Below are positions 36,401 to 39,400 of a DNA stretch of 64,000 nucleotides, in pieces. The stretch is from Escherichia coli (lineage in GTDB: Bacteria > Pseudomonadota > Gammaproteobacteria > Enterobacterales > Enterobacteriaceae): assembly GCF_030384885.1 (NCBI RefSeq), contig NZ_CP128613.1; one strand, 5' to 3'. Position 1 is the first letter of the stretch; every line of letters begins with the position of its first letter. A program made the position numbers.

Positions 36401-39400
36401 TACAGGCAGAGATTTCTGACCACTTTTTAATACAGTATCAGCAACTTCACCGAGATTTATTGTCTGATCTTCATCACCAGGAGCAATAGAACACGGTGCA
36501 TCGATAACTTCACCTTTAAAAGTAATTTTACCGGAACCCTGATTAGCATCGTCAGCAAGCGCGTTAAAAGCAACGCCTGATAACAATGCAGTTGCGAACA
36601 TAGATAACAATGTTTTTTTTAACATGACTATAATCCTTTATAAATTAGGAAAGGCTATGAAAGAGGAAAATATAGGTTTGAATCTGATATTAATTCCGCT
36701 ATGGACATTACCATAGTCAGAGATGATTTTGCTTGTTATTAATACTAAATACTGATTAAGTAAAACTTAAATCATACACTTTTATTATATATTAAGATGC
36801 GCATACCTAGATTTTTGTTGTGTGTTGTTGTGAATGATAATTTTTTTGCATGACTCGTGGTGAAAAAACAACCACCTATTGACAAAAGTTTACGTATTAT
36901 ATTGTAAGGTTGTAAAGTATATTTATTAAAACGAGTAGGGGCGTAATAATCGTGAAGATATAATATATATCTAGTGGTGCTTATTAAGTTTTATTATTAA
37001 TTAGTGATGTTTCATCCTGAAATACGATGCTTCAATAGTCTTGATTGTTCTTTTTTTAACCAAGTGTGGTGTATGATACAACACTTACTATGATCGAAAT
37101 CATATACTTGATTCACAATTATGCGAGTATATGAATATATTCAACGATGGATATGTGAAATTTTAATGCTAATGTTTAGTAATGTTAAATTTTGAAGGTG
37201 AAAAGGATGTTTATTGCCTGGTACTGGATTGTATTAATTGTTCTACTAGCTGGTGGCTATTTTCTTCATCTTAAACGTTACTGTAAAGCTTTTCGTCATG
37301 ACAGAGATGCGCTGTTAGCTGCCCAAAGTAAATTAGATAACCGCTCTGATAAATAACTATTTGAAAAGCATCAATAATACTTTTAATAACGATACAGATG
37401 TTGCCTTTAGCAATGGGCAACATCTGTCATAATCGTCTTTAACCAATTCCCGCCGTTTGTAGTAGCACTAAACTGAATCCCATCACTGACATTCCACATA
37501 GCACGCCATAGCTGGGGTTATTATTGGGGTCAATCTCTTTAGCTAGCGGCATTAATTCATCAACCGAGAGCGCCACCATAATTCCTGCAACCGCCGCCAT
37601 GATTGCCGCCATGACCACCGGAGAAATCATGCTACCGAGGATTAACCACGCCAGCACACCACCAAGAATTTCTGCCAGCCCAGAAATGCCCGCCCACAAA
37701 ATTGCGGTGCGTTTTGACCCCGTTGCCGCGTAAACCGGCCCCGCAACTGCCAGACCTTCAGGAATATTATGCAATGCAACAGCCAGCGCGATGCCAAAGC
37801 CCAGCTCCAGGTTACTGCTCGCCGTGACAAAGGTGGCAATGCCTTCCGGGAAGTTATGCAGACTGATGCCGAGAGTGAGCAGAATGGCTGTGCGCTTGAT
37901 CGATTTTGGCAACGGCTGCACCGATTTTTGCATTAAATCCTGCGGATGCGCATGTGGCAACATGCGGTCCAGACCAAAATAGCCAAGCAGACCGAAGATA
38001 AACATTCCATAACCCAGCACAGGCGACATTCCTTCGGCGGCTAATGCGGCAGGAAGCATTTCCATTAATGAGATGAGCAACATAATCCCCGCCGCAAATC
38101 CTAGCGAAAACGCCAGTAAGCGGTTCGAGGGTTTTTGCCCGAGAACGCCGAGAAACGCGCCAATAAACGTGGCTGCCCCCGCCAGTATGGTCAGAATGAG
38201 AGGTACTGACATCGACAACTCCTTATAAATCTTTACCTTCAGGCAGATCGTCAAAATAACTGATGATCATCATCATTGTTATCCGGGTTCTTACTCCGCC
38301 GAACAAGCGTATTGTGAGGATATCAAAATGACACCTTTAGTTAAGGATATCATCATGTCTTCAACACGTATGCCAGCATTGTTTTTAGGTCACGGTAGTC
38401 CGATGAACGTGCTGGAAGATAATTTGTATACCCGCAGCTGGCAGAAGTTGGGGATGACATTGCCACGCCCACAAGCGATTGTGGTGGTTTCGGCTCACTG
38501 GTTTACCCGTGGAACTGGAGTGACCGCGATGGAGACGCCGCCCACGATTCATGATTTTGGCGGTTTTCCGCAGGCGCTGTACGACACCCATTATCCTGCT
38601 CCGGGTTCGCCTGCGCTGGCACAGCGTCTGGTTGAGCTGTTAGCGCCGGTCCCTGTGACGCTGGATAAAGAAGCCTGGGGCTTTGACCATGGTTCCTGGG
38701 GAGTGCTGATTAAGATGTATCCTGACGCCGATATCCCGATGGTGCAGTTGAGTATCGACAGTACCAAACCTGCCGCCTGGCACTTTGAGATGGGGCGTAA
38801 ACTGGCAGCGCTGCGGAATGAAGGAATAATGTTGGTCGCCAGCGGTAACGTGGTGCACAACCTGCGTACGGTGAAGTGGCACGGTGATAGTTCACCGTAT
38901 CCTTGGGCGACGTCATTTAATGAGTATGTGAAAGCGAATCTGACGTGGCAAGGGCCGGTAGAGCAGCATCCTCTGGTGAATTATCTCGACCATGGAGGTG
39001 GCGCGTTATCGAACCCAACGCCAGAGCACTATCTGCCGTTGTTGTATGTCTTAGGTGCGTGGGATGGGCAGGAGCCAATTACCATTCCGGTCGATGGTAT
39101 AGAAATGGGCAGTTTAAGTATGTTGTCGGTGCAGATAGGCTAATAATTACCGGATGGCGAGTGCCATCCGGTATCATGGCTTATTCAACAAAAATATGTG
39201 GATAAAACCGAGACATATCCTGGGTGATCAATGCACGGTCTTCACGAATGCCAATTCCGGCAGGTTGATCGTTCACCAGCCAGCTACCAATCAGCATATA
39301 GCTGTCGCCGAATTTCGGTAACGGGTGGAATTGCTGAACAATCATCCCTTCTTCGCCATACGGACCTTCCGCTGCTTCAATGGTTTTGCCGTTCTCAATG

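What the first reader, a model, noticed from the sequence alone, without database searches (positions are those of the whole stretch)
36626..37438. ~800-bp AT-rich upstream region of the fimbrial operon with an unannotated 49-aa ORF
The region is about 30% GC with many A/T tracts, typical of H-NS-silenced fimbrial control regions. Within it a 150-bp ATG ORF (37207..37356) encodes a peptide with one predicted TM helix and a basic C-terminus, followed by a strong hairpin at 37387-37420. It is below the ORF-track length cutoff and could be a small regulatory or membrane protein, or chance.
Basis: seen in the sequence. Interest (0 to 1): 0.35.

Follow-up and report, generated by a model that had tools for sequence, protein, structure and literature searches.

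The report
Known small membrane protein gene yqiD
The 49-codon reading frame is a real but already known E. coli gene, yqiD, which encodes a small membrane protein of unknown function, here shortened by seven residues; the AT-rich DNA around it is partly yqiD's own control region and partly that of a known fimbrial (Yqi) operon.

Summary
The window matches E. coli 2013C-4282. The 813-bp stretch has 30.1% GC, the lowest in the 64 kb, but it is two things joined together.

- **36626-37088** is the 5' regulatory region of the Yqi (ExPEC adhesin I) fimbrial operon. It is the end of a 5.5-kb accessory segment present in 992 of 5426 complete E. coli genomes.
- **37089-37438** is core genome: promoter, ribosome-binding site, coding sequence and terminator hairpin of yqiD.

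yqiD is K-12 gene b4756, 56 aa. Its protein was shown by epitope tagging, and it was also a positive in ribosome profiling (VanOrsdel 2018). RefSeq already annotates the ORF here as a hypothetical protein.

ORF length alone is at chance level, since 35% of shuffles give one as long. Conservation is decisive. Codon positions 1+2 are 84-88% identical between E. coli alleles and Citrobacter, against 47-55% at position 3. Residues 1-37 are nearly invariant. The gene faces zupT tail-to-tail in nine loci.

This allele carries GAA>TAA at codon 50, removing seven residues of the variable tail.

The hairpin is real but lies at 37394-37427. It keeps its pairing through compensatory changes and probably terminates both yqiD and zupT.

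H-NS silencing is plausible but untested. YqiD's function remains unknown.

The parts
31596..37088 (-). Yqi (ExPEC adhesin I) fimbrial accessory segment. It holds adhesin, chaperone, usher and major subunit genes plus their 5' regulatory region, inserted between ribB and yqiD.
   Evidence: BLAST against K-12: core homology ends at 31595 (ribB side) and resumes at 37089, and K-12 has 139 bp in its place. RefSeq lists four fimbrial genes here. The published yqi-operon primer IMT-P3045 of Antao 2009 matches 36591-36625 (-) exactly.
36062..36625 (-). Major fimbrial subunit gene (YgiL/YqiL type), the first gene of the operon.
   Evidence: NCBIfam equivalog NF007276 scores 343.5 bits against a cut-off of 189. 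The protein is 59% identical to K-12 YgiL.
36626..37088 (-). 5' regulatory region of the Yqi operon: 28.5% GC and hypervariable between lineages.
   Evidence: Present in 992 of 5426 E. coli genomes at only 67-89% identity to this copy. No ORF is conserved among five variants. No Rfam match was found.
36960..36987 (-). Candidate Yqi operon promoter TTAATA-16-TATTAT (inferred). It would give a leader of about 325 nt.
   Evidence: Promoter scan, 9 of 12 positions. Both hexamers fall in blocks that are invariant in all five aligned island variants: CTTATTAA at 36980-36987 and AAGATATAATATATATCTAG at 36955-36974.
36745..36789 (.). 45-bp element shared with the upstream region of the K-12 Yqi-like operon (ygiL), at the same distance from the start codon.
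   Evidence: 82% identity to K-12 3185253-3185297. The core TTAAGTAAA is invariant in the island variants.
37089..37104 (.). 16-bp perfect palindrome TATGATCGAAATCATA holding the only GATC of the region. It is the first bases of core DNA and a candidate operator whose binding factor is unknown.
   Evidence: Homology to K-12 starts at 37089. The palindrome is conserved in K-12, 042, C. rodentium and C. amalonaticus. GATC lies at 37092.
37089..37206 (+). Conserved yqiD upstream region (promoter and short leader).
   Evidence: 75-82% identical between E. coli alleles and Citrobacter, while third codon positions of the adjacent gene are 47-55% identical. A promoter-like site TTCACA-18-TATATT lies at 37112-37141. 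A second candidate, TTAATG-17-TGtTAAATT at 37163-37191, was read from the alignment (inferred).
37195..37200 (+). Shine-Dalgarno-like AAGGTG, 6 nt before the ATG.
   Evidence: Read from the sequence. The AGGGT/AAGGT core is kept in K-12 and Citrobacter.
37207..37356 (+). yqiD coding sequence, truncated allele (49 aa plus stop).
   Evidence: Translation. RefSeq CDS WP_000469269.1. Orthologue of K-12 b4756. Purifying selection. Exactly this protein is seen on 572 contigs.
37354..37377 (+). Premature TAA (37354-37356; GAA in the 56-aa allele), then the six now-untranslated codons and the ancestral stop (37375-37377).
   Evidence: Alignment with strain 042 and K-12.
37394..37427 (.). Hairpin between the convergent genes yqiD and zupT (12-bp perfect stem, 10-nt loop). 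It is probably a bidirectional terminator.
   Evidence: Repeat finder. Fold z-scores -6.45 and -5.30. In six aligned sequences the consensus fold has 13 pairs, of which 3 keep pairing through changes on both sides.
37439..38212 (-). zupT, the convergent neighbour whose stop codon lies 11 nt beyond the hairpin.
   Evidence: RefSeq annotation. 96-99% identical to K-12, unlike the yqiD unit.

Best explanation
The region is a junction of two units.

**Left unit, 36626-37088.** This is the AT-rich 5' control region of the Yqi (ExPEC adhesin I) chaperone-usher fimbrial operon. It is the last part of a 5.5-kb accessory segment sitting between ribB and yqiD.

**Right unit, 37089-37438.** This is the complete core-genome gene unit of yqiD:
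- a conserved 118-bp promoter and leader that begins with a 16-bp palindrome;
- a ribosome-binding site;
- a coding sequence for a small protein;
- a hairpin shared with the convergent zupT gene.

**The protein.** YqiD has an N-terminal transmembrane helix (residues 2-22) and a conserved basic juxtamembrane motif, KRYC[KR]AFR[QH]DRDALL. By the positive-inside rule it sits in the inner membrane with its N terminus outside and its helical tail in the cytoplasm.

**This allele.** A GAA>TAA change at codon 50 removes seven residues of the poorly conserved tail. The conserved core is intact, so the protein is most likely still made and functional.

**The hairpin.** It most likely stops transcription coming from both directions.

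**What is shown and what is inferred.**
- Shown here: identity with yqiD, purifying selection, synteny, hairpin covariation, and the position of the junction.
- Taken from the literature, for K-12 only: the protein is made.
- Inferred: membrane topology, which promoter is used, terminator activity, H-NS silencing of the left part, and the idea that YqiD, like other small inner-membrane proteins, acts by binding and tuning a larger membrane protein.

Its actual function is not known.
For: **Origin and annotation**
- The window is 100% identical over this region to E. coli 2013C-4282, where the ORF is annotated.
- K-12 has yqiD (b4756, 56 aa) in the same place, convergent with zupT.
- The two proteins share 34 of the first 38 residues.

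**Evidence that the protein is made (K-12)**
- VanOrsdel et al. 2018 (PMC6001520) detected SPA-tagged YqiD by immunoblot and list it as a positive in tetracycline ribosome profiling.
- A 2025 preprint reports that cis variants upstream of yqiD change its expression, by GWAS, promoter model and reporter fusion.

**Selection**
- Over codons 1-38, pS is 0.67-0.92 against pN 0.07-0.13 between K-12, this allele and two Citrobacter species.
- Identity is 0.84-0.88 at codon positions 1+2 and 0.47-0.55 at position 3.
- 14 columns are invariant in 18 homologues.

**Synteny**
- yqiD faces zupT tail-to-tail in this window and in 042, K-12, C. rodentium, C. amalonaticus, L011, L013, L014 and L016.

**Junction**
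- Homology with K-12 resumes at 37089.
- Five island variants are nearly invariant from about 37080 to the ATG but only 67-89% identical upstream of that.

**Hairpin**.

**Truncation**
- The GAA>TAA change is seen in the alignment.
- The tail beyond residue 38 is only 44-56% identical at the DNA level between lineages.
- The exact 49-aa protein occurs on 572 contigs.

**Fimbrial operon identity**.
Against: - No expression data exist for this strain or for this truncated allele.
- The terminator scan found no canonical terminator. The loop is 10 nt and the T-run after the stem is weak on both strands in this allele, so terminator activity is inferred from position and covariation only.
- Which promoter is used is unresolved. 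The best-scoring + strand site (37112-37141) is not well conserved in K-12 or Citrobacter. The better conserved candidate (37163-37191) falls below the scan threshold.
- No current Pfam or NCBIfam model covers the protein, so the family rests on pairwise and profile searches.
- The idea of a protein partner is by analogy only.
- The most distant homologue (L012) is not next to zupT.
Confidence: 0.9

Rival explanations
1. The truncated allele is a decaying pseudogene: the nonsense mutation marks loss of function of yqiD in this lineage.
For: - It has a premature stop, plus two amino-acid changes (R40Q, K45N) relative to the common island-type allele. That is 2 nonsynonymous against 3 synonymous differences over 49 codons.
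- Among 5426 complete genomes, only this strain has this DNA at 99% identity or more.
Against: - The conserved core (residues 1-37), the start codon, the ribosome-binding site and the upstream region are intact. They are 97-100% identical to the 56-aa allele.
- Only the variable tail is lost.
- The exact protein is seen on 572 contigs, so the allele persists in a lineage.
Confidence: 0.12
2. YqiD is a dedicated regulator or accessory factor of the adjacent Yqi fimbrial operon. This is the reading implied by the first reader's phrase 'small regulatory protein in the fimbrial control region'.
For: - yqiD is transcribed divergently from the operon, about 580 bp from the major subunit start.
- In E. 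coli the island-type yqiD allele and the island co-occur almost perfectly: 990-991 against 992 of 5426 genomes.
Against: - yqiD is present in 5425 of 5426 E. coli genomes, most of which lack an operon at this site.
- It is present in Citrobacter next to assT-dsbL-dsbI instead.
- It is present in a genome with no fimbrial operon at either site (L016).
- An island-like allele occurs with the K-12-type arrangement (L014).
- The protein resembles no known fimbrial regulator family.
Confidence: 0.05
3. YqiD modulates the neighbouring divalent-metal importer ZupT, in the way other small proteins tune transporters.
For: - The tail-to-tail pairing with zupT, with a shared hairpin, is kept in nine loci. 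These include homologues of only about 45% identity.
- His21 and Cys26 at the cytoplasmic membrane face are invariant within Escherichia and Citrobacter.
Against: - ribB-zupT gene order is simply inherited in these relatives, so synteny is weak evidence.
- The genes are convergent, not co-transcribed.
- The most distant homologue lies between assT and ygiC instead.
- His21 and Cys26 are not kept in the distant homologues.
- No interaction data exist.
Confidence: 0.1
4. The ORF is a chance reading frame in AT-rich DNA, or the functional product is an RNA rather than a protein.
For: - 35% of shuffles of the region give an ATG ORF at least as long.
- An antisense 50-aa ORF overlaps it.
Against: - Codon-position periodicity of substitutions and pN far below pS.
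- Invariant residues across genera.
- The protein was detected in K-12.
- No Rfam match.
Confidence: 0.02
5. YqiD is a type I toxin-like small hydrophobic peptide held in check by an antisense RNA.
For: - It is small and has a single transmembrane helix.
- The convergent arrangement leaves room for antisense transcription.
Against: [quoted passage not shown] That is unlike toxins, which are kept silent.
- There is no long structured leader, no antisense RNA family match, and no duplication of the locus.
- The cytoplasmic tail is long, charged and conserved.
Confidence: 0.03

Closest known systems
YqiD of E. coli K-12 (b4756, UniProt YQID_ECOLI), a 56-aa small protein found by VanOrsdel et al. 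2018
   Same: - It is the orthologue, in the same position between ribB and zupT and convergent with zupT.
- The N-terminal 11 residues are identical, and 34 of the first 38 residues match.
- It has the same transmembrane helix plus KRYC[KR]AFR[QH]DRDALL motif.
- The upstream region and the hairpin are homologous.
   Different: - This allele is 49 aa because of a nonsense change at codon 50.
- It belongs to a deeply diverged allele class: third codon positions are only 50% identical to K-12, as far as Citrobacter is.
- It is separated from ribB by the 5.5-kb Yqi operon rather than by a 261-bp gap (of which 139 bp are replaced here).
Yqi fimbriae, ExPEC adhesin I (Antao et al. 2009). Wurpel et al. 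2013 distinguish 'Yqi' from the K-12 'Yqi-like' (ygiL-yqiGHI) operon.
   Same: - It has the same four-gene operon.
- The published operon primer matches exactly.
- The same locus is found in APEC O1, Nissle, ST131 and 042.
- Yqi and Yqi-like operons sit at different loci and exclude each other, as Wurpel described.
   Different: - This strain's copy is an outlier. Its regulatory region is at most 89.6% identical to any other complete genome.
- In the window sequence the usher carries an in-frame TAG.
Small single-pass inner-membrane proteins of E. coli that bind and tune larger membrane proteins (AcrZ-AcrB, MgtS-MgtA/PitA, MgrB-PhoQ, KdpF); named from general knowledge
   Same: The size class and the single-transmembrane-helix architecture are the same, and it is a chromosomal stand-alone gene.
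   Different: No sequence similarity was found or expected, and no partner is known. This is an analogy for how it may work, not a family assignment.
H-NS-silenced cryptic chaperone-usher operons of E. coli (Korea et al. 2010, as cited by Wurpel 2013)
   Same: - It has an AT-rich 5' region (28.5% GC) ahead of a chaperone-usher operon in an accessory segment.
- Overproducing the PapB-family regulator TosR raised the Yqi major-subunit transcript by log2 5.3 in CFT073, which fits a normally quiet promoter.
   Different: H-NS binding at this promoter has not been shown in anything I could read. The high-affinity H-NS motif is not enriched here.

Membership tests
YqiD small-protein family (orthologues of E. 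coli b4756) | Significant sequence similarity to K-12 YqiD over the conserved core | tested here: met
   69% identity over the aligned length. 14 columns are invariant in 18 sequences. Homologue E-values range from 1e-15 to 1e-30.
YqiD small-protein family (orthologues of E. coli b4756) | N-terminal transmembrane helix followed by the basic motif KRYC[KR]AFR[QH]DRDALL | tested here: met
   Hydropathy 2.06 over residues 1-19. The motif is present at residues 23-37. AlphaFold2 predicts a helix over residues 2-48.
YqiD small-protein family (orthologues of E. coli b4756) | Position downstream of ribB and convergent with zupT | tested here: met
   Here the Yqi operon is inserted between ribB and yqiD.
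YqiD small-protein family (orthologues of E. coli b4756) | Full length of 56-58 aa | tested here: not met
   The protein is 49 aa because of GAA>TAA at codon 50. Only the variable tail is lost, so this makes it a truncated allele rather than a non-member.
YqiD small-protein family (orthologues of E. coli b4756) | The protein is actually synthesised | not testable with these tools
   Shown for K-12 by SPA tagging, and listed as a ribosome-profiling positive (PMC6001520). Not shown for this allele.
Pfam DUF4051 (a label some databases give these proteins) | A match to the Pfam model above its gathering score | tested here: not met
   The Pfam-A copy searched returns no DUF4051 model. It gives only sub-threshold hits to unrelated DUFs. 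The label appears in source names.
Intrinsic (rho-independent) terminator, bidirectional | A stable G+C-containing stem-loop just after the stop codons of both convergent genes | tested here: met
   12-bp perfect stem; the fold of the 89-nt stretch around it is -27.6 to -28.5 kcal/mol. It lies 37 nt after the yqiD stop and 11 nt after the zupT stop.
Intrinsic (rho-independent) terminator, bidirectional | A run of U directly after the stem | tested here: not met
   The terminator scan found none. The sequence after the stem is CATAATCGTCTTTAA on the + strand and ATCGTTATTAAAAG on the - strand. The K-12 allele has a better run, TGTTGTTTTTA.
Intrinsic (rho-independent) terminator, bidirectional | The structure is conserved through compensatory change | tested here: met
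   3 of 13 pairs changed on both sides with pairing kept, in six sequences.
H-NS-silenced regulatory region | AT content well above the genome average, rich in TpA steps | tested here: met
   28.5-30.1% GC against 50.8%. 123 TpA steps per kb against 46.
H-NS-silenced regulatory region | High-affinity nucleation motif TCGATAAATT | tested here: not met
   1 hit at up to 2 mismatches against 2.6 +/- 1.7 in shuffles.
H-NS-silenced regulatory region | H-NS occupancy, and derepression in an hns mutant | not testable with these tools
   This needs ChIP-seq or RNA-seq in a Yqi-bearing strain.
Phase-variable fimbrial switch (fimS-type invertible element or Pap-type Dam/Lrp switch) | Conserved inverted repeats flanking the promoter, with inverted copies in some genomes; or paired GATC sites | tested here: not met
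   - A 21-nt imperfect inverted repeat (36759-36779 / 37069-37089) brackets the promoter-like site, but its right arm is not conserved in 042 or ST131.
- Every listed genome but one matches as a single co-linear piece; the exception matches only partially, in two places.
- There is only one GATC in the region.
- No recombinase gene lies nearby.

The most novel reading that the evidence does not exclude
YqiD is a conserved membrane-embedded modulator of a specific partner. The candidate suggested by gene order is the metal importer ZupT. The two deeply diverged yqiD allele classes in E. coli each travel with one of the two mutually exclusive Yqi / Yqi-like fimbrial configurations, and on this reading they reflect functional co-adaptation rather than mere hitch-hiking during recombination.
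Probability: 0.08. Interest if true: 0.5.

Novelty: already known. Interest (0 to 1): 0.12.

Why it matters
The practical result is a correct annotation.
- The ORF should be labelled yqiD (truncated allele), not treated as a new fimbrial regulator.
- The 'fimbrial upstream region' should be cut at 37088.

YqiD remains one of many validated E. coli small membrane proteins with no known function. Three features found here give concrete handles for anyone who wants to study it:
- the strongly conserved core of the protein;
- the conserved palindrome in its promoter;
- a naturally occurring allele that lacks the tail.

The locus also illustrates how one intergenic gap (ribB-yqiD) receives different cargo in different lineages.

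Tried and rejected
- **Family libraries.** Pfam and NCBIfam scans of the small protein gave no family above threshold.
- **RNA families.** The Rfam scan of 36400-37600 gave only chance-level matches with E = 0.38.
- **Terminator scan.** It found no canonical terminator. The hairpin had to be judged by folding and covariation instead.
- **H-NS motif and A-tract counts.** Neither exceeds what composition predicts.
- **Invertible switch.** The inverted repeat is not conserved and no inverted copies were seen.
- **Extra small genes in 36626-37088.** None is conserved among the five variants.
- **A YqiD paralogue next to assT in strain 042 and in L014.** None was found.
- **The invariant 20-mer of the Yqi regulatory region in the K-12 Yqi-like locus.** It is absent there.
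- **Known operators.** By eye I compared the palindrome and the promoter with the Fur, Zur, NikR, PhoP and ArcA consensus sequences as I remember them. Only half-site-level resemblance appeared, and I make no claim from it.
- **Supplementary tables.** Those of two papers that might have given the yqiD transcription start are not held in the library.
- **Structure.** AlphaFold2 gave a single long helix, so a fold search would be uninformative and was not run.
- **Fused YqiD-ZupT model.** I considered it and dropped it, because the tool returns no contact or PAE information with which to judge an interface.
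Full report
**Where the window comes from.** The stretch 36500-37560 is 100% identical to the chromosome of E. coli 2013C-4282, NZ_CP027579.1. RefSeq annotates, in window coordinates:
- ribB;
- a four-gene chaperone-usher operon on the minus strand, consisting of adhesin, chaperone, usher and a major subunit at 36062-36625;
- a 'hypothetical protein' of 49 aa at 37207-37356 on the plus strand (WP_000469269.1);
- zupT on the minus strand at 37439-38212, followed by ygiD, ygiC, ygiB and tolC.

**Check of the observation.**
- The 813 bp have 30.1% GC against 50.8% for the window. This is the only stretch of that length in the 64 kb below 36%.
- The ORF and its translation are as described. 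The N-terminal 19-22 residues are strongly hydrophobic. The remainder carries 8 K/R against 4 D/E.
- The hairpin is real but shifted. The perfect 12-bp arms are 37394-37405 and 37416-37427. Fold z-scores are -6.45 (+ strand) and -5.30 (- strand), and no shuffle of 200 folds as well.
- Three things do not hold:
  - A/T runs are no more frequent than composition predicts.
  - Promoter-like sites are not enriched.
  - An ATG ORF of this length appears in 35% of shuffles of the region.
- Length alone therefore says nothing about whether the ORF is a gene.

**What the ORF is.** E. coli K-12 has a named gene, yqiD (b4756, 56 aa), at the same place, convergent with zupT. The K-12 protein is MFIAWYWIVLIALVVVGYFLHLKRYCRAFRQDRDALLEARNKYLNSTREETAEKVE. 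It matches the window protein at 34 of the first 38 residues.

VanOrsdel et al. 2018 (PMC6001520) detected chromosomally SPA-tagged YqiD by immunoblot. They note that it was also a positive in a tetracycline-arrest ribosome-profiling screen. A 2025 preprint lists yqiD among genes whose upstream variants change expression consistently in GWAS, a promoter model and reporter fusions. I found no paper that assigns a function.

**Conservation.**
- A search of 5.8 billion proteins found 61 relatives, named from Escherichia, Shigella, E. albertii and several Citrobacter species.
- A profile search of 1.84 billion cluster representatives found only 22 clusters, so the family is small.
- In 18 aligned sequences, residues 1-8, L10, Y18, H21, K23, R24 and C26 are invariant. 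D32-L36 are nearly so. The tail beyond residue 38 is free to vary.
- More distant members, about 45% identical, keep the pattern M[FY]I[AS]W..W, then a transmembrane helix, then [KR]R..[KR]A[CYF]R[QH][DE]R.A.
- At the DNA level, over codons 1-38, pS is 0.67-0.92 while pN is 0.07-0.13 among K-12, this allele, C. rodentium and C. amalonaticus.
- Codon positions 1+2 are 84-88% identical and position 3 is 47-55% identical. This is the signature of a translated, selected reading frame, and it rules out chance and the antisense ORF.
- AlphaFold2 predicts one continuous helix over residues 2-48, with pLDDT 86-90 over residues 1-20.
- There are no charges before the helix and five K/R in the eleven residues after it. 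By the positive-inside rule this gives an N-out, C-in topology (inference).

**This allele.** Compared with the 56-aa protein of strains 042, Nissle, ST131 and AST240 (WP_001296421.1), the window has GAA>TAA at codon 50, plus R40Q and K45N. The conserved core, start codon, ribosome-binding site and upstream region are intact. The exact 49-aa protein is on 572 contigs in the large collection. I read it as a tolerated tail truncation and give pseudogene decay a minority probability.

**The region is composite.**
- BLAST against K-12 shows that homology ends 4 bp past ribB (31595) and resumes at 37089. K-12 has 139 bp where this strain has 5493 bp.
- The inserted segment is the Yqi, or ExPEC adhesin I, operon:
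  - The major subunit hits the YgiL equivalog NF007276 at 343.5 bits.
  - It is 59% identical to K-12 YgiL.
  - The 'yqi operon' cloning primer of Antao et al. 2009 matches 36591-36625 exactly.
- Wurpel et al. 2013 already described Yqi and the K-12 'Yqi-like' operon as related, mutually exclusive and at different loci.
- The regulatory part of the island (36626-37088) occurs in 992 of 5426 complete E. coli genomes. The same number, 990-991, carry the island-type yqiD allele.
The rest is the yqiD unit.

**Inside the fimbrial control region.** Among five island variants the sequence is only 67-89% identical, with indels. Two blocks are invariant: AAGATATAATATATATCTAG (36955-36974) and CTTATTAA (36980-36987). 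Together they form the minus-strand promoter-like site TTAATA-16-TATTAT reported by the scan. I propose it as the operon promoter, which would give a leader of about 325 nt; this is an inference. A 45-bp element (36745-36789) is shared with the K-12 ygiL upstream region at the same distance from the start codon. There is no conserved ORF, no RNA family, and no evidence of an invertible or Dam-dependent switch.

H-NS silencing fits the composition and the general literature. It also fits the strong induction of the Yqi subunit by TosR overproduction in CFT073. It is untested, and the high-affinity H-NS motif is not enriched.

**Inside the yqiD unit.**
- The 118 bp upstream of the ATG are 75-82% identical between E. 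coli alleles and Citrobacter. That is far above the neighbouring third codon positions, so this non-coding DNA is constrained.
- It opens with a perfect 16-bp palindrome, TATGATCGAAATCATA (37089-37104). The palindrome is conserved in K-12 and Citrobacter and contains the only GATC of the region. It is not kept in the most distant homologues.
- There are two promoter candidates, and I cannot choose between them without 5'-end data.
- The hairpin lies 37 nt after the yqiD stop and 11 nt after the zupT stop. In six sequences, 3 of 13 pairs keep pairing through changes on both sides. The U-run is weak in this allele, so terminator function is inferred.

**Wider context.**
- yqiD faces zupT tail-to-tail in all nine loci with enough flank.
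- The gap between ribB and yqiD takes different cargo: nothing in K-12, the Yqi operon here, and assT-dsbL-dsbI in Citrobacter.
- The most distant homologue lies between assT and ygiC instead, so the pairing with zupT is not universal.
- The island-type and K-12-type yqiD alleles are as far apart as E. coli and Citrobacter. The divergent tract stops at the zupT stop codon.
- An island-like allele with the K-12 arrangement (L014) and a hybrid allele (L016) also exist. This points to old alleles reshuffled by recombination.

**Verdict.** This is a known gene in a known setting. The finding is real, its interpretation is half right, and its novelty is low. What remains open is the function of YqiD itself. 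The tools here cannot settle that.

Noticed in passing
window 35127-35129 (usher gene 33453..35975, minus strand): The window differs from RefSeq NZ_CP027579.1 at 4 of 15,061 compared positions: 35129, 38687, 43587 and 44438. In each case RefSeq has G. The change at 35129 turns CAG into an in-frame TAG at codon 283 of the Yqi usher. In this exact sequence the usher is therefore split into two ORFs and the fimbriae could not be assembled.
   Followed up: partly
window 31596-37088; L004 and L006 414-3598; L003 5553-5813: The ribB-yqiD gap acts as a cargo slot. K-12 has a 261-bp gap there, of which 139 bp are replaced. This strain and 992 of 5426 E. coli genomes carry the 5.5-kb Yqi operon. C. 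rodentium and C. amalonaticus carry assT-dsbL-dsbI.
   Followed up: partly
window 37089-37438: E. coli has two deeply diverged haplotypes of the yqiD unit. Third codon positions are only 50% identical between them, as far apart as E. coli and Citrobacter. The divergence stops sharply at the zupT stop codon, and zupT itself is 96-99% identical. A hybrid allele (L016) and an island-like allele without the island (L014) also exist.
   Followed up: partly
window 36955-36987: Two blocks, AAGATATAATATATATCTAG and CTTATTAA, are invariant in a regulatory region that is otherwise 67-89% identical among five Yqi-island variants. The first is a near-palindrome (AGATATA-ATA-TATATCT). Together they coincide with a minus-strand promoter-like site. 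The 20-mer AAGATATAATATATATCTAG is absent from the K-12 Yqi-like locus.
   Followed up: partly
window 37089-37104: A perfect 16-bp palindrome, TATGATCGAAATCATA, lies exactly at the island/core junction and contains a GATC. It is conserved in K-12 and Citrobacter. The factor that binds it is unknown.
   Followed up: partly
L012 1-1846: The most distant YqiD homologue (74 aa) lies between an arylsulfotransferase gene and ygiC rather than next to zupT. In Citrobacter and in L010, yqiD is likewise divergent from assT. No paralogue sits beside assT in E. coli 042 or L014.
   Followed up: yes
L002 9690-12858 (E. coli 042): Strain 042 carries assT-dsbL-dsbI between ygiD and ygiC. The window strain has nothing at that site, so this is another variable slot in the same neighbourhood.
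   Followed up: no
whole window: GATC occurs 281 times against 236 +/- 14 in dinucleotide-preserving shuffles, and no shuffle reaches 281.
   Followed up: no
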